From an uncultured Anaerolineales bacterium (GTDB taxonomy: Bacteria; Chloroflexota; Anaerolineae; Epilineales; Epilineaceae), in the NCBI GenBank assembly GCA_964549495.1, contig CAZJWJ010000005.1, forward strand, positions 2,071 through 66,070: a DNA stretch of 64,000 nucleotides. The letters run 5' to 3'. A model generated the notes under the pieces. It saw only the letters and a list, made by a program, of their open reading frames with translations. It had not been told where the DNA came from and did no database searches. Positions 22,594 through 37,487 of the stretch are shown here, one piece after another. The position numbers and the translations under genes were made by a program. Each line of letters opens with the position of its first letter. The stretch's first letter is position 1.

Positions 22594-23637
22594 ATGCGAA
22601 GCGAGGAATTCGACTATCATCTGCCGCGCGAGCGCATCGCACAGCATCCCGCCGAACCGCGCGATCGCGCCCGGCTGATGGTGGTCGACCGCTCGAAGTC
22701 CGAGATCGAGCACCACCGATTCGATGCCCTGGGGGCGCTACTTCGTGCAGGGGATCTCCTGGTGGCCAACGACAGTCGCGTGCTGCCGGCGCGCATCCGG
22801 GGCTCGAAACTGCCCGGAGGGGGTGCGGTGGAAGCCTTGCTCCTGCGCGCGTCTCGGGACGAGCCCTCGATCTGGCGCTGCCTGGTGCGAGGGCGCGTCC
22901 GCCCCGGGAGCCGGCTGCGGTTCGAGTCCGGCACGGAATCGGTCGAGGCCGAGGTCCTCGAGCTGCTCGACGGTGGCCAGCGCAAATTGCGTTTCTCGCG
23001 GCCGGTATCCGACTGGTTGGAAGGGATCGGCGAGATGCCGCTGCCGCCATACATCCGGCATCTTCCGGAGGATCCGGAGCGCTACCAAACGGTCTACGCG
23101 CGCCGACCGGGATCGTCGGCCGCGCCCACCGCCGGCCTGCACTTCACGCCGGCCCTTCGCGAGGACCTGCGCCGCGCCGGTGTCGGTTGGGCCAGCGTCA
23201 CCTTGCATATCGGGCTGGACACCTTCAAGCCCATGGAAGCCGGCGACATCGAAGCCCATCGCATCCACCGTGAGTGGATCGAGCTGCCGGAGGCCACCGC
23301 GCGGGCCATCGCCGACGCGCGCGCGGCGGGCGGGCGGATCATCGCCGTCGGCACGACCAGCATGCGCGTGCTCGAGAGTGCCGCAGGTTGGGCGGAGTCG
23401 GCCGGCAGCAAGGCAGCGGTCGTCGCCGGCTCGGCGTGGACCGATCTCTACCTTCGTCCGGGCTCGCGATTCCATGTGGTGGATGCCTTGCTGACCAACT
23501 TCCACCTTCCGCGCTCGTCGCTGTTGGTCCTGGTGGCCGCCTTCGCCGGGAAGGACTTGATCGACCGGGCCTACCGCGAGGCCATCGAAGGGGAGTATCG
23601 CTTCTTCAGCTTCGGGGACGCCATGTTCATCCGCTGA
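22594..23637 (+). CDS. queA: S-adenosylmethionine:tRNA ribosyltransferase-isomerase
   Basis: Start at internal ATG 22594 (MRSEEFDYHLPRERIAQHPAEPRDRARLMVV…LVANDSRVLPARI). QueA-specific motifs; C-terminus FHLPRSSLLVLVAAF. The 5' part of ORF 21667..23637 overlaps rsgA antisense and is rejected. Confidence 0.9.
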   Translation: MRSEEFDYHLPRERIAQHPAEPRDRARLMVVDRSKSEIEHHRFDALGALLRAGDLLVANDSRVLPARIRGSKLPGGGAVEALLLRASRDEPSIWRCLVRGRVRPGSRLRFESGTESVEAEVLELLDGGQRKLRFSRPVSDWLEGIGEMPLPPYIRHLPEDPERYQTVYARRPGSSAAPTAGLHFTPALREDLRRAGVGWASVTLHIGLDTFKPMEAGDIEAHRIHREWIELPEATARAIADARAAGGRIIAVGTTSMRVLESAAGWAESAGSKAAVVAGSAWTDLYLRPGSRFHVVDALLTNFHLPRSSLLVLVAAFAGKDLIDRAYREAIEGEYRFFSFGDAMFIR

Positions 23638-25372
23638 AGCGGGCCAATGGATCGCCGGCATCATCCAGATCCACCCTTCGCAGCAGGGCGCGCGCGTCGA
23701 TCAGCAGCAGGATCAACAGGCCGGCCGCCAGACCGCCCAAGGCCAGGCACCATGGGCGCCGGGGATCGGCAGAAGGGTCGGTGGACACCCGGAAGCCGTC
23801 GATGGCCACCATACCGCCCGCGGCACCCACCTCCAGCTCGAGCTCGTGCAAGCCCGGTCCGAGCCCATCGGCCAGGCTCTCCCAACGCCAGCCATCCTGC
23901 CCTTGGAGGATCAGGGACTGGAAGTCACCGCCGCCGTCGATACGGTAGCGCAGGGTGCCGGCATCGGCGCCCCGGAGCAAGCGCAGCTCGATGGCCGTGC
24001 CCCGGAAGCTCATCCGGAGGCTGGCACCGGCGATGCTGGACTCGATGAAGCGATGGTCGATGGCGGTCTCGGGCTCCTCCAGGAAGACCCGGCCACAGTC
24101 CCGCGAGCGTGATGAAAGGCTCCCGTCCCAGCGCCAGGCCCAGTCGCTCGGTTGGTCCAGCCGCACCGGCGCGGAGCGTTCGGCCCATTCGCCGGGCGTT
24201 GCCACGCTGGGCTCGGCCGCCACGGCGCGCACGGCCTCGAACAGGCGACGGCGGTTGAAGCTCTCATCCAGCATCTGGAAGTGATAGACGGCATCGTCCG
24301 GCGACTTGCAGCAATGCCGGAAGTACCAGATGCTGAAGACTCCGGCCCAGGGCCAATGCTGCTGGGCATAGCGGATCCCGTCGACCGTCCACTCGGCTTG
24401 CTGTTCCTGGCTGACGCTCTGCCAGATCGAGAAGAGCCCCTCCGGCGAGGCGTTCCAGCCATACTCGTTGGCCCAGACGGCCTTGCAGCGATCGCCCTCG
24501 GCCTCCATGATCTCGCGCTGAAGCTCGATGCGCCGGAAGTTCAGCCGGTCCAGCGAGGGCTCGTCCTCGGGCGGTCGATCCAGGCCGAAGGCGTTGGCGC
24601 TCAGCACGTCGAAGTGCTCGGAGGCACCAGCCTCGTACATCCCGCGCAGATAGTCCAGGTCGCTCATGTTGCCGACCTGGTCGGGCCGTTCGTTGTTGAT
24701 GGCCAAGGGCGCGCTGAGGATGACCACGTCCGGATCCGCCTCGCGGGCCGCGCGGGTCGCGGCGGCCAGGAGCGTAACGTACTCCGCCGGATCGACCGGG
24801 TGTTGGGGGTTGAGGCCCCATTCGGTGATCAGATTCGGCTCGTTCCAGATCTGATAGAAGCGCACCCGCCCGCGAAAGTGCTCCACCGTTGCCCGAACGA
24901 ATTCGGCGTACTGCTCCGGCGAGGCCGGGGGGATGTTGTTGGGCGGACCGAGCTTCTCGCCGGGCGCCCAGGCTACCGGTGGCACCCAGGCCGCCGGGAA
25001 GTCCAGCCGCAGGATGACCTCCATGCCGTGCTCGACGTAGAGATCGACGATGCGATCGAACTTGGCCCAGTTGTACTCCCCCGGCTCGGGCTGGATCTCG
25101 TACCAGGGCATGTGCTGCTTGGCCCAGCGGATGCCGGCCAATCGCGCTTCCTCGACCGTCTTGCGCTGATCCCAGGCCTCCACCTCCTCGTGCAGGAAGA
25201 AGTTGGCGCCCCAGGGATCGACGTCGGTCAGGGGGATGCTGCGCGCCGCGCGCCGGCCACCCGGCCCGGCAGGGCCCACCGCGTTGGTGGCGACCCAAGC
25301 CAAGGCGGCCAGGCTGAGCAGCAAGAGGAGCAGGACCAGCTTGAGCCGGCGCAGTCGATGGGGGGGGACCAT
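23627..25372 (-). CDS. membrane-anchored glycoside hydrolase (GH5/GH39-like), paralogue of 2940..4943
   Basis: N-terminal TM/signal (LKLVLLLLLLSLAALAWVATNA). TIM-barrel glycosidase motif FYQIWNEPNLITEWG. C-terminal beta-sandwich. Its 3' end overlaps queA convergently by 11 nt. Confidence 0.6.
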   Translation of the reverse strand: MVPPHRLRRLKLVLLLLLLSLAALAWVATNAVGPAGPGGRRAARSIPLTDVDPWGANFFLHEEVEAWDQRKTVEEARLAGIRWAKQHMPWYEIQPEPGEYNWAKFDRIVDLYVEHGMEVILRLDFPAAWVPPVAWAPGEKLGPPNNIPPASPEQYAEFVRATVEHFRGRVRFYQIWNEPNLITEWGLNPQHPVDPAEYVTLLAAATRAAREADPDVVILSAPLAINNERPDQVGNMSDLDYLRGMYEAGASEHFDVLSANAFGLDRPPEDEPSLDRLNFRRIELQREIMEAEGDRCKAVWANEYGWNASPEGLFSIWQSVSQEQQAEWTVDGIRYAQQHWPWAGVFSIWYFRHCCKSPDDAVYHFQMLDESFNRRRLFEAVRAVAAEPSVATPGEWAERSAPVRLDQPSDWAWRWDGSLSSRSRDCGRVFLEEPETAIDHRFIESSIAGASLRMSFRGTAIELRLLRGADAGTLRYRIDGGGDFQSLILQGQDGWRWESLADGLGPGLHELELEVGAAGGMVAIDGFRVSTDPSADPRRPWCLALGGLAAGLLILLLIDARALLRRVDLDDAGDPLARFSG

Positions 25373-25391
25373 GGGTCGCTCAAGGATAGCA

Positions 25392-25492: not shown

Positions 25493-27706
25493 TCAGCGCA
25501 AGATGCCTCGCGCGTGTTCGAAGGGTCCGATCTCGCGGATCTTCTCGGCTTCGATCATCCCGGCCGGCTCGACCGACAGGAGACGCGGGTTCCGGCCGGA
25601 ATCGAGCCGCAAGCTACCGGCGCGCTGGGCAGCATCGCCCACACAGATCTGTAGCTCGACCGAGTCGAGCAGGTGGGCCGAGGCAGCTTCGGCGTCGTTG
25701 CGGCTCTCGAAGAGCAGCTGGCCGCCGGTCCAGCCTGCGCGAGCCGTGACCAAGGCGGTGACGTCGATGGGCTGACTGAGACGATACCAAGAGTTGGACT
25801 CGATCAGCTCCTCGGAGTATGCGCTACCCGGGATCCCGACCGCATCGCCTCCGGAGGCAGGTACCAGACCTGCCACGAACAAGTCATCCGCCACACCGTC
25901 CTTGACCTCTTCCGTGATGATGCCGAAGGCGAAGTCCAGGGTTGCGGAAACGATGTCCGATGCCTCCGGAAAGTCGAAGGCGGTGGAGATCAGCTGGTCG
26001 CGCACGTTCACCGCACGACCGCCGACCGCCAACCAGTCCCCTTCGTCGGCCACCAGCTGCAGGTCGGAGGCTCGGACGATCACACGCGAGAGGGTGTTGT
26101 TGGGCGGCTGGACGTTGGTCGCCAGCGACCAGCCGACCGAAGGACCGCGTTCGAAGTCCCCGTTCTCGATGACCTGCGTGCAACCCGGATCGAAGGGCGG
26201 ATCGTTGGTCGGGTCGGGCTGCGGTGTCGGGCTGGGCTCACCGGTCGGCCAAGGCGTCGGGCTGGCCGGCAGGGCCGTCGCGTTGGGCGGAACATCCTGG
26301 GTGATCTCGGCGATCTTGGACGCGGCCGGTTCCGCCGCGTCGTCGACGAAGACCTGCACCCGATACTCGTTGGCCCAGATCGGCACGTCGTTGCCCTGCT
26401 CGTCGACCGCGCGAATACATCGGGTGGCGTAGGGTCGCTGCTCCTGCCCGACCGTGATGAAGTCGTTGAGCGTACCCGACTGGATCGATTCGAAACGATT
26501 GCCGGACTTCTGCGCCCACTCCCAGCGCACGCGGGTCGCGTCCGGCCAACCAAACCAGTTCACCTGCGCGCAGAGGCGCATGGCGCCGTACTGGAACTGC
26601 TGCCCGATATTCTGCACCCGATCGGCCGGATCGATGGCGGTACCGAACCAGATGTCGACGTACTGCGAGGGCATCTGCGACGGATCGTCCTTGTCGGCAT
26701 TGGCCAGCAGCATCGGGAGGAAGGCGATCTTGGCCCGCTCCGTGGGCGTCGGCGTGATCGTCGGGGTGGGCGGCGTCACCGGCACCGTGGGCGGGGTCGT
26801 CGGCGAGACGGCCGACGTCGCGGTCGGCGGCGGCGCCTCGGTCAAAGCTTCCACGCGAACATTGTCGACGAAGCCACCGGCATAGTTGCCGCTGCCATTG
26901 CGATCGTTGAACCAGAACATGACCTCGATCGAGGCCTTGCTGCCGGCACCCGGGAACTGCAGCGGGTTCTGCAAGCCCAACCAGCGTCGCTGCTGATTGG
27001 CATTCGGATTGATGTAGAAGCAGTCCCCGACCTGGGTCGCGCCCGACTCGCGCCAGCAGACGTTGAAGGACTCGCTGCCCTGCGGGATGTCCAGCCAAAG
27101 CCGGAAGTCCACCTGCACGCCGAAGGGATAGGTCGTCGTGTCGATCCCGTCCAGATACAGTCGGGTGCTGGTGGGCTTGCCGATATTCTGCCCGCAGCTC
27201 AGGTTCTCCCCTTCACTGCCGCCGCCGGCCACCCAGGCCGCGGCTTGTCCGCCGACGTTGGCCTCGGTGTTGCAGATCTGACGACTCCAGGTGTTCACCG
27301 GATCCGGCTGGGTGGCGATGGTCAGCTGGTCGTCGACCTCCCAACCCTCCGGTGGAAACTGCGGATCCTCGAAGTCGAGCTCGTCGATCAGCTCGGCCTG
27401 ATTCGGAGCCATCGGCTGCAGACCACCGGCATCGAGATGGTCTGCCACTGCGACCAGCTCGACGGGCGCGGGACGGCTGCGCATCTCGAGGCCCGAGGCG
27501 AGGACCTGCTCGCCTCGGTCCGGGACGGGGCCATCGAAGGGACGCGCAGCTTCCACGCTGCCGAGAGCCACTACCAGGGCGAAGGCCGAGAGCAAGGCCG
27601 GCCACCATCCCCTGGCGCGGATCGACAGCCGATCTCGTCGACTCGAATTGCGAACGTTCATGGGTCTCCTCCCTAGGTGCGGGCGCAGCGAGGCGCAATG
27701 GCGCAT
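25493..27706 (-). CDS. large secreted protein with central Pro/Thr linker
   Basis: Signal peptide (WWPALLSAFALVVALGSVEA). 737 aa. Linker APPPTATSAVSPTTPPTVPVTPPTPTITPTPT and a second PT stretch. Beta-rich Gly/Asn/Trp composition. The antisense ORF 25673..27676 is a shadow. Confidence 0.45.
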   Translation of the reverse strand: MRHCASLRPHLGRRPMNVRNSSRRDRLSIRARGWWPALLSAFALVVALGSVEAARPFDGPVPDRGEQVLASGLEMRSRPAPVELVAVADHLDAGGLQPMAPNQAELIDELDFEDPQFPPEGWEVDDQLTIATQPDPVNTWSRQICNTEANVGGQAAAWVAGGGSEGENLSCGQNIGKPTSTRLYLDGIDTTTYPFGVQVDFRLWLDIPQGSESFNVCWRESGATQVGDCFYINPNANQQRRWLGLQNPLQFPGAGSKASIEVMFWFNDRNGSGNYAGGFVDNVRVEALTEAPPPTATSAVSPTTPPTVPVTPPTPTITPTPTERAKIAFLPMLLANADKDDPSQMPSQYVDIWFGTAIDPADRVQNIGQQFQYGAMRLCAQVNWFGWPDATRVRWEWAQKSGNRFESIQSGTLNDFITVGQEQRPYATRCIRAVDEQGNDVPIWANEYRVQVFVDDAAEPAASKIAEITQDVPPNATALPASPTPWPTGEPSPTPQPDPTNDPPFDPGCTQVIENGDFERGPSVGWSLATNVQPPNNTLSRVIVRASDLQLVADEGDWLAVGGRAVNVRDQLISTAFDFPEASDIVSATLDFAFGIITEEVKDGVADDLFVAGLVPASGGDAVGIPGSAYSEELIESNSWYRLSQPIDVTALVTARAGWTGGQLLFESRNDAEAASAHLLDSVELQICVGDAAQRAGSLRLDSGRNPRLLSVEPAGMIEAEKIREIGPFEHARGILR

Positions 27707-27771
27707 CCCCTGCAGTCTAGCATAGCCTCGAGGACCGAGGCCAGAGCTCCGGCGCCGGCCGAAGGGCGAGA

Positions 27772-29163
27772 TCAGGGCGCCCCGAGCAGGCTTTCGAAGA
27801 GCGGGGTCTGGTTGAGCAGGTAGACGCGATGGAGTCGTTGGCCGTCCACACCCAAGCCTCCGGCGATCCAGATCTCGCGCCCGGCGTTGCGCAGGTCGGC
27901 GCCCGCGCCCTGGCGCGGCGTCTGCAGCGGACCCGGGATCGGACGCCAGCCGGCCTCGCCGCCCAAATCGAGCGTCAGGGCGGCCGCTTCATCGCGGTCT
28001 TGGGTTCCGCCGACCAGGTAGATGCGACGCAGCACCGACACGCCCAGCGCGGCCTGACCGGCCCGGGCCGAGGGCAGCTCCTGACCTGTATCGTCGAGCC
28101 AAGCGGGGCTCGAACCCGGGCGGAAGATCCAGTGGTTCCGTTGCGGCCGGCCGCCTTCGTCCCGACCTCCGAGGACATGGACTTGCTCGTCGACCACCGC
28201 GGCGGCCAGCCCGGAGCGCGGGCGAGCCATCTCGTCCTCGATCTGCCAGGCATCCTCGCCCAAGCGCAGGGAGTAGACCCTGCGGCTGGCGCTGTCGGGG
28301 GAAGCTCCCGAGCGCCCGCCGAAGAGGTAGATCCGGCCGCGACCGGGCAGATGCGCCAGCGCGTAATCGCAGCGCGGCTCCGGCAGCGGCGGACCCTCGC
28401 TCCAACGACCGGACTCCGTATCGAAGAGCTCCACGGTGGTCAGCGCTCGGCCGCTGGCATCGCAGCCGCCCGGGACGACGATGAATCCCTGTACCGCGAC
28501 CGCCTGGATGTCGCGCACGGCCGTCGGCTTCTCGGCCAATTCGTCCCAGACCTGGACGATGCCGCGGGTGTAGCGCAGCGTGTCGGCCAAGACCCCGTCC
28601 TCGTCCTCGCCCCCGATGGCGTAGAGCCCGTCGGCGAAGACCAGCGCCAAGCCATCGCGCTCGCTGGGCAGATAGCCGGCCGGCGTCCAGGGCTGACCCG
28701 GCTGCGCCGTCGGTTCGGGAGCCGGCGTGGCGGTCGCCGAGCCGCGCAGGACCCGATCCCCGAAGGCCCATCCCATCGCGGCGATGACCAGCAGGAGCAG
28801 GAGCAGCAGGCCACCGAGCAGCCGCACCGTGCGCCGGGATTGCTGCCGGGCGCGCTCGAGCTCCTCGGCCAGGCGGCGCGCCGCCTGACGCTGGGCCTCC
28901 TGCTCCTCGGCGCGCGGCGAATCCTCATCGCTGTCCTCGACGGGGCCGAGGTGGATCAGCCCGTGCTCGAGTGCACGCCGCACCGCCTCGGTCCGGTTGC
29001 CCGTGCCGAGCTTGCCGTTGATGTTGGAGAGGTGCTTCTTGACGGTGGCCTCGGAGATCGACCGCTCGTGGGCGATCTCGCGATTCGTCGCGCCCGTGGC
29101 GACGAGCTCGAGGATGGCCAGCTCCGTCTCGCTCAGTGGCACCGGACTGGGACTGTCGGACAT
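27772..29163 (-). CDS. membrane-anchored LuxR-family HTH regulator fused to an extracytoplasmic Kelch-type beta-propeller
   Basis: N-terminal LuxR/GerE HTH (ETELAILELVATGATNREIAHERSISEATVKKHLSNINGKLG). One TM helix (LLGGLLLLLLLVIAAMGWAF). Then ~300 aa of Kelch-like repeats (YAIGGED… IVVPGG… YLFGG… HVLGGRDE… YLVGG… WIAGG). Confidence 0.6.
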   Translation of the reverse strand: MSDSPSPVPLSETELAILELVATGATNREIAHERSISEATVKKHLSNINGKLGTGNRTEAVRRALEHGLIHLGPVEDSDEDSPRAEEQEAQRQAARRLAEELERARQQSRRTVRLLGGLLLLLLLVIAAMGWAFGDRVLRGSATATPAPEPTAQPGQPWTPAGYLPSERDGLALVFADGLYAIGGEDEDGVLADTLRYTRGIVQVWDELAEKPTAVRDIQAVAVQGFIVVPGGCDASGRALTTVELFDTESGRWSEGPPLPEPRCDYALAHLPGRGRIYLFGGRSGASPDSASRRVYSLRLGEDAWQIEDEMARPRSGLAAAVVDEQVHVLGGRDEGGRPQRNHWIFRPGSSPAWLDDTGQELPSARAGQAALGVSVLRRIYLVGGTQDRDEAAALTLDLGGEAGWRPIPGPLQTPRQGAGADLRNAGREIWIAGGLGVDGQRLHRVYLLNQTPLFESLLGAP

Positions 29164-29254
29164 CGAGAGGCCTTGATGTGGATGGAAGACTCGGCTTCGA
29201 CGGACCCGCCGCGGACAGATCCCGAAAGGCAGCGAGACCGGGCGAGGCGCAAGC

Positions 29255-29300
29255 GCCGATTATACCACGTCCCATCCCGCCCTCCGCTGACCGAGCCCGG
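29255..29300 (-). promoter_or_regulatory. putative promoter of the LuxR-Kelch gene (-10 TATAAT on minus strand at 29259..29264)
   Basis: Minus-strand sequence GGTATAATCG lies ~95 nt upstream of the start codon. The -35 is weak. Confidence 0.35.
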
Positions 29301-29307
29301 ATCGCGC

Positions 29308-30381
29308 CTAGGGCGCGCCTCCATCCGAGGAGGCCACCAGGTCGAGCCGGCAAACGCAGCGCCGACAGGTCGGGTCCCGCGATGGATCGAAGGCCGCCTC
29401 GAAGGCCCGGGCCCGGGATCCGGCGAGGATCTCCAGCAGGCGCCCATCCCGCGGCCAACGGCCGACCGATCGGTGGAAGAAGCAGGGCCGGACCGTCCCG
29501 TCGGCCTCGATGACGGCGCTGACCAGCGGGGCGTTGCAGCGGCCCGCCTCCGGCAGCCGGCCCGCCTCCAGCGCCCTGAAATGCTCCACCAGACGCGCTC
29601 GGAGCTTGGCCGGGGTCTCGACGGTCGAACGGGCCAGCCGCGGATCGGCCTCGATCGCGGCGATCTGCTCGGCCAGGGCGTCGATCTGCGCGCCGACCGG
29701 CAGCAGCGCGTTCCGCCTCGTCGAGGACCATTCCTCGCCGCGCTGAAAGGCGGAGCTGTGCGCATCGACGGCCAGGAAGGAGACACGATCGATGCCCAGC
29801 TGCCCGGCCGCCTCCAGGGCATCGACCAGGCTGGTGCAGTTGCCGCGCTGGACCGTGTAGCGCGCCGTGATCGCCAGGCCCGGCGACAGCGAGCGGAGGG
29901 CCTCGAGGCCATCGGCGAGATGATCGAAAGCCCCGGCCTGGCCGCGGATTCGATCGTGGATGTGGGGAGGACCATCCAGCGAGATCACCAGATCGTCCAC
30001 GCGTCGCGCGATCTCCCCGGCCTCTTCGACCAAGCCCGGGCCGCTGGAGAGCAGGCTCAGCCCCACGCCCCGACGGTGCAGCGGATCGACGAGGGTCCAC
30101 AGATCGGGGTGGAGCAGCGCCTCGCCACCGGTCAGCACCAAGCGGCGCAGGCCGGCCGCCAGCCAGTCCTCGGCCTCGGCGGCCAGCGGCTCGGAGCGCA
30201 AGTGATTCCCGCTCCGGTCGCGCCAGATCCCGCACATGCGGCAGCGCCAACAGCAGCCGGAAAAGGGCGACATGAGCAGGATCGGCAGGCGGGGCAGGCC
30301 GGCCGGCCGTCGCGGCCTGCCGGACGGTACCTGCTCGAGTCGTCCATCCGAACGCGGTTGGGGACCGAGCCGGGTGCTCAT
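29308..30381 (-). CDS. radical SAM enzyme with C-terminal SPASM/twitch-like Cys cluster
   Basis: Start at internal ATG 30381 (MSTRLG…) overlapping the upstream stop as ATGA; an alternative ATG is at 30273. CxxxCxxC at GCCWRCRMCGIW. C-terminal auxiliary-cluster cysteines (CNAPLVSAVIEADGTVRPCFFH … DPTCRRCVC). The upstream ~310 codons of ORF 29308..31320 are a shadow of the neighbouring gene. Confidence 0.7.
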   Translation of the reverse strand: MSTRLGPQPRSDGRLEQVPSGRPRRPAGLPRLPILLMSPFSGCCWRCRMCGIWRDRSGNHLRSEPLAAEAEDWLAAGLRRLVLTGGEALLHPDLWTLVDPLHRRGVGLSLLSSGPGLVEEAGEIARRVDDLVISLDGPPHIHDRIRGQAGAFDHLADGLEALRSLSPGLAITARYTVQRGNCTSLVDALEAAGQLGIDRVSFLAVDAHSSAFQRGEEWSSTRRNALLPVGAQIDALAEQIAAIEADPRLARSTVETPAKLRARLVEHFRALEAGRLPEAGRCNAPLVSAVIEADGTVRPCFFHRSVGRWPRDGRLLEILAGSRARAFEAAFDPSRDPTCRRCVCRLDLVASSDGGAP

Positions 30382-31400
30382 GCGCCGGGGCCGGCCTCCG
30401 GCTCGGCCTCCGCGACGCGCCGGCCGACCAGCAAGGGCAAGTCGGCCGACTCGCGACCGCTCTGCAGGCGGCGCCGCAGCCGGTGAAAGCGCCAGGACCA
30501 TCCGCGGCGCGGTCCGGGTCGGGCCCAGCGCAGCGAGAAGGCCTCCGCCCACCGCGGCAGGTCCGACTCCAGCAGGTACTCCCGGCTGCCCAAGGCATCG
30601 GAGGCGAAGCCGTAGCGCGCTTCGAAGGCCGAGCGTCGCGCCTGGACCATGGCGCGTCCGGCCTCCGGCGAGCGGTAGACCGGCGAGTCCATGATGACCA
30701 GGCTGCCGCCGGTCGCCATCACGCGCAGCGCCTCGCGCAGGCTGGAGGCCGGCTCCGGCGCGTAGTGCAGGCTGGCGTTGAAGACCACCACGTCGGCTCG
30801 AGCCGCGACCAAGGGCAGCCGATCGAAGTCCGCCAGCAGACAGTCGAAGGGGGCCTCGCGGTCCGCCCCGAGGCGAGCCGCCACGCCCAGTCCGACCCGG
30901 GCGTGATCCGAGAGGTCGATGGCCAAGGGGCGATGCCCCTCGAAGGCCAGGCGACGGCTCAGCCAGCCGACGCCGGCGCCCAGATCGAGCACGCGCAATG
31001 ATACCGCGCCGGCGCGGGCGCGCAAGACATCCAGCAGGCAGTCGTAGCTGGCCGCGCGCTGCCACCACTCCCAGGCAAAGCGCATCTCCGCGCCAGGCCA
31101 GGGCAGGTCGCGCGCCCGCTCCACGCCGCCCTCGCCGCGCCCCTCGGCGATCCGGACCTGCTCGTACTCCTCGAGAAATCGCCGCTGGGCGACCGTCAGG
31201 TCGCGGAAGTCGACGGTGCCGGTGGACTCCGAACGAGACCAGCGCCGGCCGCAGCCAGGGCAGACCAGGCCATCGGCGGCCGCCGAGAGCGCCCCGAGCG
31301 GGCGGCGGCATTCGGGGCATGCCAGTTGCGGAAACCGAAAATCGTCGTCGCCGGATGCGGGCCTGGCGGGCCTGGGGCCAGCTTCGTCGATGGGGCTCAT
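30378..31400 (-). CDS. SAM-dependent methyltransferase with N-terminal Trm112-like zinc-ribbon
   Basis: Start at internal ATG (MSPIDEAG) overlapping the upstream stop (ATGA); exact coordinate ±1 nt. Zn-ribbon LACPECRRPLG … LVCPGCGRRW. Class I MTase motif I VLDLGAGVGWL and post-I AIDLSD. Confidence 0.7.
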   Translation of the reverse strand: MSPIDEAGPRPARPASGDDDFRFPQLACPECRRPLGALSAAADGLVCPGCGRRWSRSESTGTVDFRDLTVAQRRFLEEYEQVRIAEGRGEGGVERARDLPWPGAEMRFAWEWWQRAASYDCLLDVLRARAGAVSLRVLDLGAGVGWLSRRLAFEGHRPLAIDLSDHARVGLGVAARLGADREAPFDCLLADFDRLPLVAARADVVVFNASLHYAPEPASSLREALRVMATGGSLVIMDSPVYRSPEAGRAMVQARRSAFEARYGFASDALGSREYLLESDLPRWAEAFSLRWARPGPRRGWSWRFHRLRRRLQSGRESADLPLLVGRRVAEAEPEAGPGA

Positions 31401-32212
31401 GCGCTGCGCTCCAATTCGAGCAGGTAGTGATCCGATAGCCGCGCGGCCAGCGGCAGGCCGGCCAGCCGGCGCTCGACGACCAGGCGCCGCCGCAGTCGCT
31501 CCGGCCGGCGCTCGAGCGCTCCGGCCAAATCGGTCGGGGGCAGGAGCAAGCCCAGCGCCCGAAGCCCGCGCGGCGCGAAGCGCGGGCCGAAGGCGGCCCG
31601 AACGCGCTCGGGGCTCGGATAGCGCAGCCACAAGTCCCGCCCGCCTACCTTGGCGCGAATCGGCCTCGGACCGAGACGACGCCAGGCGCGGCGGTCGAGG
31701 CGGATTCCGAAGCCCAACAGCTCGAGCAGGCAGAAGGGGCCCATCACGACCAGAACGATCCGGGCACCGGGCCGCATGCGTTCGGCAAGCCGGCATCCCA
31801 GCGCCGGCAGATCGGCGATGCAGTTGATGACCCCGAAGTTGCTCAGCAGCCCGTCGAAGGGCCCGTCGAAGGCGGAGAGCTCGCCGAGCCGCTCGGCCGG
31901 GACGTGGTGGAAGCGCGGCCGCAGGGACTCGGGCATGCTGGCGCAGCGCGCCCGGGCCCGCTCCAGCATGGCCGACGAGGCGTCCAGGCCGACGACCCGG
32001 CATCCGCGGCTGGCCAGCCAATGCGCATCCACGCCGCTGCCACAGCCCAGATCCAGGATGCGATCACCGGCGGAGAAGCTAGCGGCCGAGCGGCGCCAGA
32101 CCTCGCCCCGCAAGGCCCGACCCAGTGCGCGCTCGGTGAAGCGCACGTCGTAGTCGGCCGCCAGGCCGTCGAAGGCGGCCGGCTCGATCCGCTGCTCAGG
32201 CTTCGGGGTCAT
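31397..32212 (-). CDS. class I SAM-dependent methyltransferase (Methyltransf_11/25-like)
   Basis: Start at MTPKPEQRIEP (ATG 32212). Motif I ILDLGCGSGVDAHWLA, motif II VVGLDAS, LLSNFGV. Confidence 0.75.
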   Translation of the reverse strand: MTPKPEQRIEPAAFDGLAADYDVRFTERALGRALRGEVWRRSAASFSAGDRILDLGCGSGVDAHWLASRGCRVVGLDASSAMLERARARCASMPESLRPRFHHVPAERLGELSAFDGPFDGLLSNFGVINCIADLPALGCRLAERMRPGARIVLVVMGPFCLLELLGFGIRLDRRAWRRLGPRPIRAKVGGRDLWLRYPSPERVRAAFGPRFAPRGLRALGLLLPPTDLAGALERRPERLRRRLVVERRLAGLPLAARLSDHYLLELERSA

Positions 32213-33602
32213 GGACGCTCCGCCGCATCCGGCGCTTGTACCAGGCGATCTCCAGCGCGCCGCGCAGCAGGGCCGGCCAGGCGCGCGGATGCCGGCCGGC
32301 ATCCAGGCGATCGCGCTGCGCCAGCTCGGCCTGCAAGCGGCTGGAGACCGCGCGGTAGTAGGCCGGGCCCGGCCGGCCGAGGACGGCGTGATCGCGGTCC
32401 GATCCCTCGGCCCAGGGCCGTCGGAGCCGCACCTTGTCGGCCACGCTCTGGTAGTAGGGCGTACCGCGGATGGGATAGGCCACCGTGGTCAGCACCCGAT
32501 CGGCGCGGACGCGCTTGACCTCGCGGATGGTGGCCTCGATGTCCTGGCCGGTCTCCCCCTCGTAACCCCACATCACGAAGAGGCCCACCGAGATGCCCTC
32601 CGCTTGGAGCAGGCCGGTCGATCGGCGCACCTGCGCCGCGGTGGTCCCGCGCTCCATCGCATCCAGCACCGGCTGCGATCCGCTCTCGGCTCCCAACCAG
32701 ACCCGAAAGCAGCCCAGCTGCGCCAAGAGCCGCGCCGTCTCCGCATCGACCCGATCGGCGCGGGTGATGCATTCGAAGGGGATTTGCAGGCCCCGCTGCT
32801 CCATCTCGCCCGCGAAGTCGCGCAGCCAACGCCGGCTGGCGGTGAAGACGTCATCGGCATACCAGAGCTGGTCCGGCGCGTAGCGCGCGCGGATCCAGGC
32901 CACCTCCTCGGCCACGTCCCGCGGCGAGCGGCGGGCATGGCGATGCCCGAAGACGGCGTGGCTACACCAGCGACAGCGCCAAGCGCAGCCCCGCGCGGTG
33001 ACGAGGTTGAGCGAGCCGCGGCCATGCTGCTCGCGCCAGCAATCGATGTAGGGCTGCAAGTCGATGGCCTCGCGGTCGGGCCAGGGCAAGCGGGCTAAGT
33101 CGCGCATCGGAGGGCGGGCCGGCTCGCGCTGGATGGCACCCGCCCTGTCGCGCCATGCCAGCCCCGCGATGCCCTCCAGGCTCGCATCGGGCTGGCTCGA
33201 CCAGCGATCCAGCAGCTCGGTCAGGCCGATCTCGCCCTCGCCGATCACGACCGCATCGGCGCCGGCATCCAGGTACTCCTCCACGTATTCGGAAGGATCC
33301 GGGCCGCCCACCACCACGCGCTGGCCCCGCTCTCGGCCTTCGGCGATCAGCTCCAGGGCCGCGGCGCGGGTCATCATGTTGGCATAGATGCCCAGCACGG
33401 GTGCAGCGACCGCCCCCAGCCGGCGCCGGTGCATCCGGCGATCCAGGAAGGTGCCATCGACCACCGTCACCGACCGCCCGGCGCGGCGCAGCCAGGCCGA
33501 GAGCGAGAGCAGCCCCAGCGGGGGGTAGGGGCGCACATGCCGCTGCTCGGCCAGGTCTTCGCATAGGCGATGCCCGTGGGTCAGCAGCAGGTCGACGCTC
33601 AT
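32196..33602 (-). CDS. B12-binding-domain radical SAM enzyme (class B)
   Basis: Start ATG 33602 (MSVDLLLTHG), 1 nt after the upstream stop. N-terminal cobalamin-binding Rossmann region (RPYPPLGLLSLSAWLRRAGRSVTVVDG). CxxxCxxC at GCAWRCRWC. Confidence 0.8.
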   Translation of the reverse strand: MSVDLLLTHGHRLCEDLAEQRHVRPYPPLGLLSLSAWLRRAGRSVTVVDGTFLDRRMHRRRLGAVAAPVLGIYANMMTRAAALELIAEGRERGQRVVVGGPDPSEYVEEYLDAGADAVVIGEGEIGLTELLDRWSSQPDASLEGIAGLAWRDRAGAIQREPARPPMRDLARLPWPDREAIDLQPYIDCWREQHGRGSLNLVTARGCAWRCRWCSHAVFGHRHARRSPRDVAEEVAWIRARYAPDQLWYADDVFTASRRWLRDFAGEMEQRGLQIPFECITRADRVDAETARLLAQLGCFRVWLGAESGSQPVLDAMERGTTAAQVRRSTGLLQAEGISVGLFVMWGYEGETGQDIEATIREVKRVRADRVLTTVAYPIRGTPYYQSVADKVRLRRPWAEGSDRDHAVLGRPGPAYYRAVSSRLQAELAQRDRLDAGRHPRAWPALLRGALEIAWYKRRMRRSVHDPEA

Positions 33603-33603
33603 C

Positions 33604-35262
33604 CTAGCCGGACCCACCGTTCGCCGCGCCAAAGCGCGTCGGCTGCTCGCTGCGCTCCGCCCGCTCGCGCCGGGCCATCTCGCGCCATCGGTCGCCGATC
33701 GCACGAAGCTCGGCGCGGCTGGCCTCCTGCGCCTTCCGGCTGAGCGGACCCGACCTCCCGTCCTCCTCGGCGATCGAGGTCACCTCGATCAGATCTCGGC
33801 GGCGGAGCAGGGCTTCGTGCTCGCAGTGGAGCAGCGCGTGCAGCTCGCGGTAGAAGGCGCTGCGATAGCTGCCCTGGAAGAGCATGGCCAGATCCTGGCT
33901 GTCCCGCCAATGCCGGCGTGCGCCGAGCTGCTCGGCCACGCGCGCATGAAAGGGCGTGCCCGGCAGCGGATAGCTGACCGAGACCCCGATGGCGTCCGGC
34001 AGGCATCGTCGCATCAGCTCCGCCGTGGCTTCGATCTCCGCCCAGCCCTCGCCCGGATAGCCCAGCTGCAGAAAGAAGGCCACCCGGATCCCCTGCGCGC
34101 GCAAGGTCCGGGTCGCGCGCTCTACCTGCTCGACCCGGATGCCCTTCTCCATCGCATCCAGGATGGTCTGGGAACCGCTCTCCACCCCCAGCCAGAGCTC
34201 CTCGCAACCCGAGCGCGCCAGCTGCTCGGCGTAGTCCTCGTCCACCCGATCGACCCGGCTCTGCGCCACATAGGGCAGCCGCACGCTCCGGGCTTCCAGC
34301 GCGTCGGCAAACTCGCGCACCCAGTCCGCTTGCAGACCGAGCACGTCATCGACGAACCAGAGCCCGTCCGGCGCCTGCTCGGTCGCGATCTGGGCCACCT
34401 CGTCGGCCACCGACTCGGGCCGGCGTTGGGCATAGCGACGGCCCCAGATCGGCCGGGCGCACCAGTTGCAGGCGTAAGGGCAACCGCGCGAGGCAGCCAG
34501 GTTCAGCTGGAAATGTCCGTGCGCCCGCCGCCATCGCCGGCGGTAGGCCTCCATGTCGACCAAGTCGCGCGCCGGCAGCGGGAAGCCTTCCAGGTTGCGC
34601 GCCGGGGGACGCGCGGGACCGCGCAGGAGCGCGCCGTCCGGCCCGGTCGTGACGCTGCCGGCGATGCGCTGCCATGCCATGCCTTCGGCCGATTTTCGCG
34701 CCTCCTCGGCCGAGCTCACCGGCTCCTCGACCGGACCCCGCGCCGCGATCGGCAGGCTTTGGACCGCCTCCAGCAGGCTCCATTCGGCCTCGCCGGTCAA
34801 GACCGCGGTGGCCCCGGCCTCCAGCCAAAGCTCGGGCCGATCGCTGGCATCCGAGCCGGCCACCAGGCAGGGCAGGCCCCGCGCGCGGGCGGTCCGCAGC
34901 ATCTCGAAGCCCGCCTCGCGCATCCGCGACAGGCACATCTTGGACAGGAAGTTGAAGCTGTCCTCGAAGAGGGCGACCAGACGCGGCCGGCTGGCCTCCA
35001 GGGCCGCCTCGAAGGCCTCGGGGCCCGGGGCGAGCATGGCATCGAAGAGCGCCACGCGCAGCCCGGCCCGTCTCAGGATCGAAGCGGCGTAGAGCGTGCC
35101 CAAGGGCGGGTAGGGCCGCATCCGCGCGACCTGCTTGGGATCCAGGGCCATGTAGAGCGTGTGGCCGAGCAGCACGTCGACCGGGCCGCCGGCGTCGCCG
35201 CGACAATGCGGCGCGAAGCGGCGGATGGCGGGCGACCGGCGGATGGCGGGCGATCGACTCAT
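33604..35262 (-). CDS. B12-binding-domain radical SAM enzyme (class B), paralogue of 32196..33602
   Basis: N-terminal B12-binding region (RPYPPLGTLYAASILRRAGLRVALFDA). CxxxCxxC at GCPYACNWC. Start overlaps the upstream amidohydrolase stop (ATGA). Confidence 0.8.
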   Translation of the reverse strand: MSRSPAIRRSPAIRRFAPHCRGDAGGPVDVLLGHTLYMALDPKQVARMRPYPPLGTLYAASILRRAGLRVALFDAMLAPGPEAFEAALEASRPRLVALFEDSFNFLSKMCLSRMREAGFEMLRTARARGLPCLVAGSDASDRPELWLEAGATAVLTGEAEWSLLEAVQSLPIAARGPVEEPVSSAEEARKSAEGMAWQRIAGSVTTGPDGALLRGPARPPARNLEGFPLPARDLVDMEAYRRRWRRAHGHFQLNLAASRGCPYACNWCARPIWGRRYAQRRPESVADEVAQIATEQAPDGLWFVDDVLGLQADWVREFADALEARSVRLPYVAQSRVDRVDEDYAEQLARSGCEELWLGVESGSQTILDAMEKGIRVEQVERATRTLRAQGIRVAFFLQLGYPGEGWAEIEATAELMRRCLPDAIGVSVSYPLPGTPFHARVAEQLGARRHWRDSQDLAMLFQGSYRSAFYRELHALLHCEHEALLRRRDLIEVTSIAEEDGRSGPLSRKAQEASRAELRAIGDRWREMARRERAERSEQPTRFGAANGGSG

Positions 35263-36734: not shown

Positions 36735-37487
36735 ATGGAAGTCGCTCGAGACATCGCCGAGCGCCGAGCGCTCCGCCGCGTGCGCGAGGCCTACGCCGCC
36801 TGGAGCGCGACCTACGAGCGGAGCGGGCACAATCCGCTGACGGCGGCGGCCGAAGAGCTGCTGGGCCCGTGGCTTCGCGATCTGCGTGGACAACGCCTGC
36901 TCGATTTGGCCTGCGGCGACGGCCGCGTGCTCGGTCTGGCGCGGCAGGAAGCGACGCGCTTTCGGGCCGGACTCGACTTCAGCCGCGGCATGCTGCTGGC
37001 CGCGCGTCGCCGCCATCCCGATACGCCCTTGATCGAGGCGGAGCTGTGCGCGCTGCCCCTGGCCGCCGAGAGCTTCGATCGGGTCGCGCTGAGCCTGGCG
37101 CTGAGCCACTTGCCGCGCATCGAGGTCGCCGTCTTTGAAATGGCGCGCGTCTTGGCACCGGGCGGCCGGCTCCTGCTGATCGACCTGCATCCGGATGCCG
37201 CCGAGCGCGGTTGGACGCGCAGCTTCCGCGATGCCGCGGGCCGCAGGCGCAGGGTCGACTGGTGGCCCCAGGATCTGGACCGGATCGAGGCGCTCTGCCG
37301 CGCGGCCGGCCTGGAGATCCTGCGCCGACGCGAGCGAGCCCTCGATCCGACGCGCCTCCCGCCGGACGCGCCGCCTTCGGCCGGGCGGGGCCTCGCGCTC
37401 TACGCCATCGAAGCCCGGAAGCCGGCCGAGCAGAGCAGCGATCAGCGCTCGCCGTCGGCCAGCCCATTGAATCCGATCGGCAGGTAG
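36735..37487 (+). CDS. class I SAM-dependent methyltransferase, divergent from the radical-SAM cassette
   Basis: ATG 36735 with GGAGCGAGAG RBS 9 nt upstream. Motif I LLDLACGDGRVLGLA, post-I GLDFSRGML, LAPGGRLLLIDL. Confidence 0.7.
   Translation: MEVARDIAERRALRRVREAYAAWSATYERSGHNPLTAAAEELLGPWLRDLRGQRLLDLACGDGRVLGLARQEATRFRAGLDFSRGMLLAARRRHPDTPLIEAELCALPLAAESFDRVALSLALSHLPRIEVAVFEMARVLAPGGRLLLIDLHPDAAERGWTRSFRDAAGRRRRVDWWPQDLDRIEALCRAAGLEILRRRERALDPTRLPPDAPPSAGRGLALYAIEARKPAEQSSDQRSPSASPLNPIGR

What the first reader, a model, noticed from the sequence alone, without database searches (positions are those of the whole stretch)
27772..29163. Single-pass membrane LuxR-HTH::Kelch-propeller one-component regulator next to the cassette
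A cytoplasmic LuxR/GerE DNA-binding domain at the N-terminus is followed by one TM helix and a ~300-aa extracytoplasmic Kelch-type beta-propeller. DNA-binding-first/sensor-outside topology is known from ToxR/CadC, but is unusual for LuxR-type HTHs. The gene has its own TATAAT -10 and sits immediately downstream of the rSAM cassette. A second, secreted Kelch propeller (37442..38626) flanks the cassette on the other side, which suggests the propellers bind a shared ligand, possibly the cassette product.
Basis: seen in the sequence. Interest (0 to 1): 0.55.

Follow-up and report, generated by a model that had tools for sequence, protein, structure and literature searches.

The report
Membrane-anchored LuxR regulator with Kelch sensor
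This gene encodes a membrane-anchored DNA-binding regulator with a six-bladed propeller domain outside the cell; it is real and well conserved across the phylum Chloroflexota, but the architecture was already catalogued, and nobody has tested what it senses or controls.

Summary
The ORF at 27772..29163 (-) encodes 463 aa:
- a GerE/LuxR HTH (aa 9-66);
- a long helix ending in one TM segment (aa ~113-136);
- a Pro/Thr linker;
- a six-bladed Kelch propeller (aa 160-451; AF2 pLDDT 90.8).

Positive-inside charge bias and a perfectly co-varying Cys pair (86 both, 29 neither, 0 single) place the propeller outside the cytoplasm. A consensus extended -10 (TGGTATAAT) is the only one in the 64-kb window. 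It is conserved in 8/8 orthologous loci examined.

- **Not unusual.** GerE is the third most common DNA-binding domain among transmembrane transcription regulators, ahead of the ToxR type. The same GerE+Kelch single-pass architecture is already listed for Roseiflexus (Rcas_0145) and Chloroflexus (Chy400_2071).
- **Family size.** Relatives were found in at least 575 places in species-representative genomes. All 80 loci returned are from Chloroflexota.
- **Cassette link is frequent, not obligatory.** A B12-rSAM/methyltransferase core lies directly upstream in 7 of 11 orthologue contexts. The cassette also occurs elsewhere without this regulator.
- **Invariant partners lie downstream.** These are a secreted protein (~720 aa here) and a PslG-like GH39 glycosidase (10/10 contexts).
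- **The two propellers are barely similar** (E 0.005).

Most likely it is an envelope/glycan-related transmembrane one-component regulator. It is a new member of a known kind, and its function is untested.

The parts
27772..29163 (-). CDS of the LuxR/GerE-TM-Kelch protein (463 aa)
   Evidence: ORF. Pfam GerE and Kelch hits. At least 285 homologous clusters; nearly all of the 120 listed carry both GerE and Kelch domains. AF2 pLDDT 90.8.
29259..29267 (-). Consensus extended -10 promoter element, TGGTATAAT, 95 nt upstream of the ATG
   Evidence: Only match in the 64-kb window, against 0.02 expected. TGNTATAAT is present upstream of the gene in 8/8 orthologous loci examined. No -35 match and no conserved operator were found.
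28966..29139 (-). Cytoplasmic GerE/LuxR-type helix-turn-helix, aa 9-66
   Evidence: PF00196, 61.2 bits. Four helices with pLDDT above 93. Recognition-helix residues T40, V41, H44 and I48 are invariant, and K42, N47 and K51 are at least 90% conserved.
28828..28965 (-). Acidic flexible linker (aa 67-83) and charged juxtamembrane helix (aa 84-112) carrying the motif RRLAEELERAR
   Evidence: Low pLDDT at aa 76-80, then a continuous helix 84-140. L98, E101, L102, R104 and R106 are conserved in at least 90% of orthologues and at most 30% of more distant family members.
28756..28827 (-). Single transmembrane segment, aa ~113-136
   Evidence: Kyte-Doolittle 2.53 over 19 aa. An equivalent segment is the top hydrophobic stretch in 46/47 members. 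Flanking K+R averages 4.4 (N side) against 1.2 (C side).
28687..28755 (-). Pro/Thr/Ala-rich extracytoplasmic linker, aa 137-159
   Evidence: Sequence RVLRGSATATPAPEPTAQPGQPW. Low pLDDT block.
27811..28686 (-). Six-bladed Kelch beta-propeller, aa 160-451, with the Cys234-Cys265 pair (codons 28462-28464 and 28369-28371)
   Evidence: Pfam. Six Gly-Gly doublets (five fully invariant) and six conserved Trp: W159, W206, W254, W306 invariant, W355 and W406 at least 90% conserved. Foldseek matches six-bladed Kelch domains at TMt about 0.8. Cys pair: 86 both, 29 neither, 0 single.
25493..27664 (-). Conserved downstream neighbour: secreted ~723-aa protein of unknown family. Three beta-sandwich regions are separated by Pro/Thr linkers. 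TGCTAGACT -10-like element at 27714-27722.
   Evidence: Present downstream in 10/10 orthologue contexts with enough sequence. No Pfam, NCBIfam or PDB sequence hit. Poor AF2 model, with only weak CBM/lectin-like fold hits. -10-like element conserved in several orthologue loci.
23627..25372 (-). Conserved downstream neighbour: membrane-anchored PslG-like (GH39 / clan GH-A) glycoside hydrolase, 581 aa. TGCTATCCT -10-like element at 25383-25391.
   Evidence: Best PDB sequence hit is PslG (4zn2, 5bx9), E 9e-13 over aa 70-329. Weak GH42/GH10/GH39/CE2_N Pfam hits. NEP and NEYG motifs. Present in 10/10 contexts at 46-73% identity.
29308..36500 (-). Upstream cassette: amidohydrolase, two B12-binding radical-SAM enzymes, two SAM methyltransferases, and a radical-SAM/SPASM protein
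   Evidence: Pfam and NCBIfam. The full set is upstream in 4 of 11 orthologue contexts, a core of two B12-rSAM and two methyltransferases in 3, and nothing in 4.
37442..38626 (-). Secreted Kelch propeller protein with a signal-peptide-like N-terminus. Possible co-component.
   Evidence: Pfam Kelch. N-terminal hydrophobic segment. Found upstream of the regulator in 9/11 orthologue contexts, and directly adjacent where the cassette is absent (L007, L012, L095). Only marginally similar to the regulator's own propeller.

Best explanation
The gene encodes a single-pass, N-in/C-out transmembrane transcription regulator, a one-component system. It has three parts:
- a cytoplasmic GerE/LuxR-type HTH;
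- a long helix that joins the HTH to the membrane and contains the TM segment;
- a disulfide-stabilised six-bladed Kelch propeller outside the cytoplasmic membrane, which acts as the sensor.

It belongs to a family found throughout Chloroflexota. It is transcribed from its own consensus extended -10 promoter. That kind of promoter needs no activator, so the sensor is probably made constitutively.

Proposed mechanism (inferred). The propeller binds an extracytoplasmic cue, most likely a glycan or a glycan-associated protein of the cell envelope. Occupancy changes the pairing of two chains through the TM and juxtamembrane helices. The two HTHs then form the dimer that LuxR-type domains need in order to bind DNA. 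The protein then controls nearby envelope genes while still tethered to the membrane.

The most probable targets are the two invariant downstream genes: the secreted beta-sandwich protein and the PslG-like GH39 glycosidase. Each has its own weaker, non-consensus -10 element. Where the B12-rSAM/methyltransferase genes are present, they may also be targets. The adjacent secreted Kelch protein may act as a co-component, in the manner of ToxS or TcpH.

Shown: domain architecture, fold, family distribution, conserved promoter element and conserved gene neighbourhood. Strongly inferred from sequence: membrane topology and the disulfide. Inferred only: ligand, dimer switching and regulon.
For: - **Architecture and fold.**
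- **Topology.** One hydrophobic segment in 46/47 members. Positive-inside bias of 4.4 against 1.2. The Cys234/Cys265 pair is present together in 86 homologues, absent together in 29, and never present singly. 111 of 115 members have no Cys in the cytoplasmic part.
- **Intact DNA-binding helix.** Recognition-helix residues are invariant or nearly so. Residues conserved specifically among orthologues concentrate in the HTH and the juxtamembrane helix, which implies a shared DNA target and a shared transmission element.
- **Promoter.** Unique in the window and conserved in 8/8 orthologous loci examined.
- **Neighbourhood.** The PslG-like glycosidase and the secreted protein lie downstream in 10/10 contexts. 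The secreted Kelch lies upstream in 9/11, and the rSAM/methyltransferase core in 7/11.
- **Glycan theme.** PslG is the best solved homologue of the neighbour. A periplasmic-type sugar dehydrogenase (GSDH) is next door. Cassette homologues elsewhere sit among glycosyltransferases and a Wzy-like protein. More distant family members often lie near GT4, GT2, pyruvyl-transferase and SLT genes.
- **Kelch as a sensor domain elsewhere.** A similar propeller is fused to a Ser/Thr kinase in P0369.
- **Class precedent.** GerE-type transmembrane regulators are common, and this architecture is already listed among them.
Against: - No experimental data exist for any family member.
- No operator or inverted repeat shared between orthologous promoters was found; the only recurrent palindromes are GC-rich ones.
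- The glycan theme in the wider family is a minority signal. No neighbour cluster is found in more than 18 of 81 loci, and no background rate was computed.
- Orthologue-specific conservation is low in the propeller, so no ligand pocket can be pointed to.
- The Kelch domain falls below the NanM/mutarotase family thresholds, so sugar binding is not supported by family membership.
- Topology was not checked with a dedicated predictor.
Confidence: 0.55

Rival explanations
1. The regulator is the dedicated sensor of the product of the adjacent B12-rSAM/methyltransferase cassette (a small molecule or modified peptide). The regulator's propeller and the secreted propeller bind that same ligand, giving feedback control of the cassette.
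For: - A core of two B12-rSAM and two methyltransferase genes ends 5-150 nt before the regulator gene in 7 of 11 orthologue contexts, across 42-64% protein identity.
- A secreted Kelch gene flanks the other side in most of them.
Against: - 4 of 11 orthologue contexts (L007, L009, L012, L095) lack the cassette but keep the regulator and its downstream genes.
- Cassette homologues at 47-51% identity occur without any LuxR-Kelch gene. In a Terriglobia genome they sit next to an OmpR-type two-component system. In Chloroflexi OHK40 they sit inside a glycosyltransferase cluster.
- The two propellers are only marginally similar (E 0.005).
- The regulator has its own promoter.
Confidence: 0.15
2. The protein is a membrane-tethered latent transcription factor. 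The membrane anchor keeps the HTH away from its targets. A signal at the propeller triggers site-1 and site-2 proteolysis, which releases a soluble ~110-aa LuxR-type regulator. This is analogous to anti-sigma factor cleavage and to the cleavage-dependent activation proposed for CadC.
For: - The released fragment would resemble free-standing small LuxR regulators. The best NCBIfam hit of the N-terminus is the 74-residue PedR model, and GerE itself is a stand-alone HTH.
- The TM segment contains helix-destabilising Gly residues.
- Proteolytic activation has been reported for another transmembrane regulator (PMC11484849, listed; abstract only).
- A Peptidase_MA_2 gene recurs about 8 kb downstream in several orthologue loci.
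Against: - No protease gene is directly adjacent.
- The conserved charged juxtamembrane helix and the flexible acidic linker are at least as compatible with DNA binding from the membrane.
- No cleavage motif was identified.
- Nothing here distinguishes release from tethered action.
Confidence: 0.15
3. The propeller is not a signal receptor. It is an enzymatic or structural envelope module (for example a sugar mutarotase-like protein, a lectin or a matrix anchor). The HTH then serves only autoregulation or nucleoid-membrane tethering.
For: - JGI annotates some members as 'N-acetylneuraminic acid mutarotase'.
- There are weak hits to NANM and to the cyclically permuted mutarotase family.
- Orthologue-specific conservation in the propeller is low.
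Against: - The mutarotase hits are far below family thresholds: 23.5 bits against 45, and 32 against 243.
- The HTH recognition helix is the best conserved part of the protein across the phylum, which indicates selection on specific DNA binding.
- The DNA-binding-domain / TM / extracytoplasmic-domain layout is the defining layout of transmembrane one-component regulators.
Confidence: 0.1

Closest known systems
Rcas_0145 (WP_011997685.1, Roseiflexus castenholzii) and Chy400_2071 (WP_012257786.1, Chloroflexus sp. Y-400-fl), catalogued as single-pass transmembrane transcription regulators in Demey et al. 2023 (PMC10269533, supplementary tables)
   Same: Same architecture (GerE followed by Kelch repeats, one TM, 454-487 aa) and same phylum. 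Roseiflexus and Chloroflexus MAG homologues align over nearly the full length at 29-34% identity.
   Different: They are distant paralogues or orthologues with other gene neighbourhoods. The window protein belongs to a subgroup (at least 42% identity) defined by the downstream PslG-like glycosidase and the secreted protein (~720 aa here). None has been studied experimentally.
ToxR / TcpP / CadC transmembrane one-component regulators, with their co-components ToxS and TcpH
   Same: N-terminal cytoplasmic DNA-binding domain, one TM and a C-terminal extracytoplasmic sensor. The sensor domain is disulfide-containing (for ToxR and CadC this is from general knowledge). A neighbouring secreted or membrane partner gene is possible.
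   Different: The DNA-binding domain is a GerE/LuxR four-helix HTH, not the OmpR-type winged helix; there is no Trans_reg_C hit. The sensor is a ~290-aa Kelch propeller, not a small alpha/beta periplasmic domain. The phylum is Chloroflexota, not Proteobacteria.
Bacteroides hybrid two-component systems with periplasmic beta-propeller (Reg_prop/Y_Y_Y) glycan sensors
   Same: A beta-propeller outside the membrane and a DNA-binding domain inside, in one polypeptide, encoded next to glycan-degrading genes. The census counts them as 'hybrid TTRs'. That they sense glycans is from general knowledge.
   Different: Those proteins signal through histidine-kinase and receiver domains and use AraC-type HTHs. 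The window protein has no kinase or receiver domain, so any signal must pass directly through the TM helix.
CsgD / EpsA-type LuxR regulators of matrix and exopolysaccharide genes, and small stand-alone LuxR HTHs (GerE, PedR)
   Same: The same HTH family. The N-terminus gives partial NCBIfam hits to PedR (58 bits), EpsA and CsgD. The neighbourhood contains an exopolysaccharide-type hydrolase.
   Different: All hits are far below the family cut-offs (58 against 120 for PedR). Those regulators are soluble. CsgD and EpsA carry the HTH at the C-terminus, after a different N-terminal domain.
Bacterial Ser/Thr kinases with extracytoplasmic Kelch propellers (for example P0369 found here)
   Same: A related Kelch propeller is attached to a cytoplasmic signalling domain. 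This supports a sensor role for such propellers.
   Different: The output is a protein kinase, not a DNA-binding domain. P0369 has two propellers.

Membership tests
LuxR/GerE HTH superfamily (PF00196) | Sequence match above the curated Pfam threshold | tested here: met
   61.2 bits against a cut-off of 23.5, aa 9-64.
LuxR/GerE HTH superfamily (PF00196) | Four-helix bundle with a conserved recognition helix | tested here: met
   AF2 helices 12-22, 27-34, 38-52 and 57-66 at pLDDT above 93. T40, V41, H44 and I48 are invariant, and K42, N47 and K51 are at least 90% conserved, across 47 members.
LuxR/GerE HTH superfamily (PF00196) | Binds DNA as a dimer at a repeat operator | tested here: inconclusive
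   A search for palindromes shared by promoters of 8 orthologous loci gave only GC-rich repeats. Binding itself needs experiment.
Kelch beta-propeller | Kelch repeat profile matches above threshold | tested here: met
   Kelch_1 67.4 bits against 20.1; PF24681 83.8 against 50.
Kelch beta-propeller | Closed propeller of six four-stranded blades | tested here: met
   Six Gly-Gly doublets (five fully invariant) and six conserved Trp. AF2 pLDDT 93-98 over most of aa 160-451, dipping to about 90 near aa 401-410. Foldseek E 1e-17 to 1e-20 and TMt about 0.8 to six-bladed Kelch structures.
Transmembrane transcription regulators (TTRs, as defined by Demey et al. 2023) | A DNA-binding domain and at least one transmembrane region in the same protein | tested here: met
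   GerE domain plus one hydrophobic segment of KD 2.53, conserved in 46/47 members and modelled as a helix. Definition taken.
Transmembrane transcription regulators (TTRs, as defined by Demey et al. 2023) | Sensor domain outside the cytoplasm, DNA-binding domain inside | tested here: met
   K+R 4.4 against 1.2 across the TM. Cys pair co-variation 86/29/0 and a nearly Cys-free cytoplasmic part. These are indirect; no TMHMM-type predictor or experiment was available.
Transmembrane transcription regulators (TTRs, as defined by Demey et al. 2023) | Regulates transcription while membrane-bound | not testable with these tools
   Needs fractionation plus ChIP or reporter assays.
ToxR/CadC/TcpP family proper | OmpR-type winged-helix DNA-binding domain (Trans_reg_C, PF00486) | tested here: not met
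   No Trans_reg_C hit at E <= 0.01. The domain is GerE.
Quorum-sensing LuxR receptors | N-terminal autoinducer-binding domain (PF03472) followed by a C-terminal HTH | tested here: not met
   No Autoind_bind hit. The HTH is N-terminal. SdiA and PA1136-family models match only over the HTH and far below their cut-offs.
NarL/FixJ response regulators | Receiver domain with a phospho-acceptor Asp | tested here: not met
   No Response_reg hit. NarL, FixJ and UhpA models match only aa 9-70.
NanM / Kelch-type sugar mutarotases | Family profile above threshold | tested here: not met
   PF24996 23.5 bits against 45; TIGR03548 32.2 against 243.2.
PedR (small LuxR-type regulator of cyanobacteria) | NCBIfam equivalog score | tested here: not met
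   58 bits against a cut-off of 120.

The most novel reading that the evidence does not exclude
The regulator and the adjacent secreted Kelch protein form a two-propeller 'co-component' sensor, analogous to ToxR/ToxS. This sensor would read the state of a Chloroflexota envelope or sheath glycan. That glycan would be C-methylated or otherwise tailored by the B12-radical-SAM/methyltransferase genes and trimmed by the PslG-like hydrolase. The signal would feed back directly on those genes from the membrane. If so, this would be the first characterised Kelch-sensor transmembrane regulator and the first defined envelope-sensing pathway in this phylum.
Probability: 0.15. Interest if true: 0.55.

Novelty: new member of a known kind. 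Interest (0 to 1): 0.3.

Why it matters
Chloroflexota are abundant, mostly uncultured filamentous bacteria, and their signalling and envelope biology are almost unexplored. This protein belongs to a family found across the phylum, and it has an unusually clean modular layout: HTH, one TM helix, propeller. Its gene neighbourhood is tightly conserved. That makes it a tractable entry point for two questions: how a transmembrane regulator passes a signal through a single helix, and what controls envelope-glycan remodelling in these organisms. As a discovery it is modest. The class is known, the architecture is already catalogued, and nothing about it contradicts expectation.

Tried and rejected
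- **Source contig.** A look-up of the window protein's own contig found nothing on record.
- **Promoter scan.** The sigma-70 two-hexamer scan found no promoter. The element is an extended -10 without a -35, so a direct pattern search was used instead.
- **Operator search.** A search of three promoter regions in 8 orthologous loci for shared inverted repeats found only GC-rich palindromes shared by at most 5 loci. Shuffled sequences reached 3-4. This was rejected as uninformative.
- **RNA elements.** Rfam scan of 22-41 kb at E <= 1 gave no hits. The 89-nt leader folds no better than shuffles, z = 0.16. A riboswitch or structured leader is therefore rejected.
- **Downstream secreted protein.** Only 8 homologues were retrievable. 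The AF2 model is poor (pLDDT 58.6). Foldseek gives low-TM hits to CBM and lectin jelly-rolls. This is kept only as a weak hint.
- **Metagenome scan.** The single-protein scan returned one locus. An alignment query would have been better.
- **AlphaFold-database fold search.** The library was unavailable.
- **TM-Kelch with a different N-terminal domain.** Seven representatives whose best match began at the TM were checked. All carry GerE, so the idea of domain swapping within the family was rejected.
- **Two window propellers as recent paralogues.** Rejected (E 0.005).
- **Literature.** Searches for LuxR+Kelch, and for the locus tags of catalogued members, found no functional study.
Full report
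**1. What is at the coordinates**

The minus-strand ORF 27772..29163 encodes 463 aa. The window has about 70% G+C, so long spurious ORFs overlap it in other frames, for example an 885-aa ORF on the plus strand. This frame is the real gene, for three reasons. Pfam finds GerE at aa 9-64 (61.2 bits, cut-off 23.5). Pfam also finds Kelch repeats over aa ~170-436 (PF24681 83.8 bits; Kelch_1 67.4 bits). A protein search returns at least 285 homologous clusters, and nearly all of the 120 listed are 430-510 aa with both domains.

**2. Anatomy**

An alignment of 47 family members and an AF2 model with mean pLDDT 90.8 give the following layout:

| Residues | Feature |
|---|---|
| 12-66 | four-helix HTH |
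| 67-83 | acidic, poorly ordered linker |
| 84-140 | one continuous helix: a charged juxtamembrane part (RRLAEELERAR...) followed by the hydrophobic segment at aa ~113-136 |
| 137-159 | Pro/Thr/Ala linker |
| 160-451 | beta-propeller |

Six Gly-Gly doublets (five of them fully invariant) and six conserved tryptophans mark six blades. Foldseek against the PDB returns six-bladed Kelch domains (designed SAKe6 proteins, LZTR1, KEAP1, KLHL2/3/12/20). E-values are 1e-17 to 1e-20 and target TM-scores are about 0.8.

**3. Topology**

No dedicated predictor was available, so three indirect tests were used.
- One segment with mean Kyte-Doolittle hydropathy of at least 1.9 over 19 aa lies between the HTH and the propeller in 46 of 47 members. 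No other segment of comparable hydrophobicity occurs elsewhere in these proteins.
- The 15 residues before the segment carry on average 4.4 Lys+Arg, against 1.2 after it. By the positive-inside rule this places the HTH in the cytoplasm.
- The only two cysteines of the protein, C234 and C265, lie in neighbouring blades. They co-vary perfectly in 115 homologues: 86 have both, 29 have neither, none has only one. In addition, 111 of 115 members have no cysteine at all in the cytoplasmic part. This is the signature of a structural disulfide, and therefore of an extracytoplasmic domain.

A DsbB gene recurs a few kilobases away in two orthologous loci.

**4. Promoter**

TGNTATAAT occurs once in the whole 64-kb window on either strand, against 0.02 expected. 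It is found upstream of the orthologous gene in all eight loci examined. In some of them it lies inside the end of the preceding coding sequence. No -35 hexamer and no conserved operator accompany it. The leader matches no Rfam family and is not unusually structured.

The two downstream genes are each preceded by a different -10-like element with a TG extension. TGCTAGACT lies before the secreted protein and TGCTATCCT before the glycosidase. Each recurs in several orthologous loci. Hairpin-like GC-rich inverted repeats are visible between these two genes in the window and some orthologous loci, but the terminator scan was not run on this region. The three genes therefore look like separate transcription units. 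From the consensus match alone, the regulator's promoter looks the strongest. This is an inference.

**5. How common is the architecture?**

All 80 loci returned are from Chloroflexota. They include Anaerolineae, Ardenticatenales, Caldilineaceae, Thermoflexales, Roseiflexus, Chloroflexus, Herpetosiphonaceae and others. An exhaustive search of 1.84 billion cluster representatives gave 607 at E <= 1e-30. About two thirds of the top 150 are 430-510 aa proteins of this type; the rest are giant multi-Kelch proteins. Seven representatives that seemed to match only from the TM onwards all carry GerE as well.

In its supplementary tables GerE is the third most frequent DNA-binding domain, with 4,943 proteins (9.8%), ahead of the ToxR/CadC-type Trans_reg_C with 3,459. 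[quoted passage not shown] Kelch sensors are rare in that sample: Kelch_1 occurs in 9 of 50,302 regulators. No paper mentioning these proteins functionally was found.

**6. Neighbourhood**

Eleven distinct contexts of orthologues (42-64% identity) were compared.

| Feature | Frequency | Loci |
|---|---|---|
| Secreted protein, usually about 700 aa, downstream | 10 of 10 with enough sequence | |
| Membrane-anchored glycosidase of about 560-580 aa, at 46-73% identity | 10 of 10 with enough sequence | |
| Secreted Kelch gene upstream | 9 of 11 | all except L004 and L009 |
| Full cassette upstream | 4 of 11 | window, L001, L004, L005 |
| Core of two B12-rSAM and two methyltransferases | 3 of 11 | L010, L093, L096 |
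| No cassette | 4 of 11 | L007, L009, L012, L095 |

Other points:
- Downstream of the glycosidase usually come queA and/or rsgA.
- The glycosidase is also directly downstream in two more distant members (L013, L015).
- Where the cassette is absent and the secreted Kelch gene is present (L007, L012, L095), that gene abuts the regulator.
- The four full-cassette loci form one clade of the regulator tree. The other clade mixes short-cassette and cassette-free loci.
- Homologues of the B12-rSAM enzymes are very numerous, with at least 7,980 at E <= 1e-30.
- At about 47-51% identity these homologues occur without any LuxR-Kelch gene in two places. One is a Terriglobia contig, where they lie beside a Wzy-like gene and an OmpR-type two-component system. 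The other is Chloroflexi OHK40, where they lie inside a GT4/GT87 glycosyltransferase cluster.

The cassette is thus a frequent but dispensable and separable neighbour. The invariant partners are the two downstream genes.

**7. What the partners are**

The 581-aa protein (23627..25372) has PslG as its best solved homologue. PslG is the GH39 hydrolase of the Pseudomonas Psl exopolysaccharide pathway (E 9e-13 over aa 70-329). The 581-aa protein has weak GH42/GH10/GH39 and CE2_N Pfam hits. It has clan GH-A-like NEP and NEYG motifs and hydrophobic segments at both ends.

The ~723-aa protein (25493..27664) has a signal peptide and Pro/Thr linkers, and no Pfam, NCBIfam or PDB sequence match. Its model is poor, and the fold hits to CBM and lectin jelly-rolls are weak.

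A glucose/sorbosone-dehydrogenase-type gene lies beyond the secreted Kelch.

Among 81 loci of the wider family no neighbour is universal. GT4 (17 loci), SLT (8), GT2 (7) and pyruvyl-transferase (6) genes recur. The common thread is extracytoplasmic carbohydrate chemistry. It is suggestive, not proven.

**8. Mechanism proposed**

The protein is a transmembrane one-component regulator. LuxR-type HTHs act as dimers (established knowledge of the family). The only connection between sensor and HTH is a single helix. The most economical mechanism is therefore ligand-dependent change in dimer geometry, transmitted through the TM and juxtamembrane helices.

Consistent with this, the residues conserved specifically among orthologues cluster in two places. 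One is the HTH (T13, R28, R34, E38, A39, K43, N49, T54, N56, R62, R63). The other is the juxtamembrane helix (L98, E101, L102, R104, R106). Only a handful lie in the propeller. A related propeller fused to a Ser/Thr kinase (P0369) shows that such domains serve as sensors in other signalling proteins.

The ligand, the regulon and the role of the secreted Kelch protein as a possible co-component are inferences. Release of the HTH by regulated proteolysis is a live alternative that the data cannot separate.

**9. Comparison and verdict**

It works like ToxR/CadC-type regulators but is not a member of that family, because it has no winged-helix domain. It is also none of the following:
- a quorum-sensing LuxR (no autoinducer-binding domain);
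- a response regulator (no receiver domain);
- a NanM mutarotase (below threshold);
- PedR (below threshold).

It is a member of the GerE-type transmembrane regulators and of a Chloroflexota-specific GerE-Kelch family that was already visible in public catalogues. Novelty is 'new member of a known kind', and interest is modest (0.3). Its main value is as a clean, conserved and untested sensor-regulator in an under-studied phylum.

Noticed in passing
window 23627..25372 (-): PslG-like GH39 / clan GH-A glycosidase with hydrophobic anchors at both ends and a weak CE2_N-like beta-sandwich. At 46-73% identity it is better conserved between orthologous loci than the regulator itself.
   Followed up: partly
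window 25493..27664 (-): Secreted ~723-aa protein with three beta-sandwich regions separated by Pro/Thr-rich linkers. It has no match in Pfam, NCBIfam or PDB sequences. Only 8 homologues were retrievable, and it always lies between the regulator and the glycosidase. The fold is unresolved (pLDDT 58.6).
   Followed up: partly
window 27714-27722 (-) and 25383-25391 (-): TG-extended -10-like elements TGCTAGACT and TGCTATCCT recur at the same places in several orthologous loci. The second lies only 11 nt before the annotated ATG of the glycosidase. This suggests a very short leader, a leaderless mRNA, or a start codon further downstream.
   Followed up: partly
window 29308..36500 (-); L092, L094: The B12-radical-SAM pair belongs to a very large family (at least 7,980 hits at E <= 1e-30). 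In a Terriglobia contig it expands to five B12-rSAM genes plus a methyltransferase, an amidohydrolase and a SPASM protein, next to a Wzy-like gene. In Chloroflexi OHK40 it sits inside a GT4/GT87/DUF2142 cluster. ScmC/HprK-like genes accompany both. This points to glycan or lipid tailoring rather than an obvious RiPP, but the substrate is unknown.
   Followed up: partly
window 38706..40214 (+); L010, L093, L096: A GSDH-type (PQQ-dependent glucose/sorbosone dehydrogenase) gene lies divergently next to the secreted Kelch gene. Cytochrome c and DsbB genes recur beside it in L010 and L093, and a CAP-domain gene in L093 and L096.
   Followed up: no
window 28828..28965 (-), aa 84-112: The juxtamembrane motif A-R-R-L-A-E-E-L-E-R-x-R-R-R is conserved only in the orthologue subgroup (L98, E101, L102, R104, R106). 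It is a candidate dimerisation or signal-transmission element.
   Followed up: partly
P0272 and P0263 (representative library): Predicted proteins of 2,854 and 3,836 aa match the HTH many times. P0272 carries 14 GerE domains by Pfam. These may be real poly-HTH proteins or gene-calling artefacts.
   Followed up: no
window 27829..30486 (+) and other frames: Very long ORFs (for example 885 aa) run antisense to the regulator and the rSAM genes. They are typical of 70% G+C DNA, and no evidence was found that they are genes.
   Followed up: no
L001, L007, L009, L010, L096 (about 8 kb downstream of the regulator): A Peptidase_MA_2 gene and an adjacent unknown ~400-490-aa gene recur on the opposite strand beyond rsgA. 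They are syntenic with the regulator block, and their relevance is unknown.
   Followed up: no
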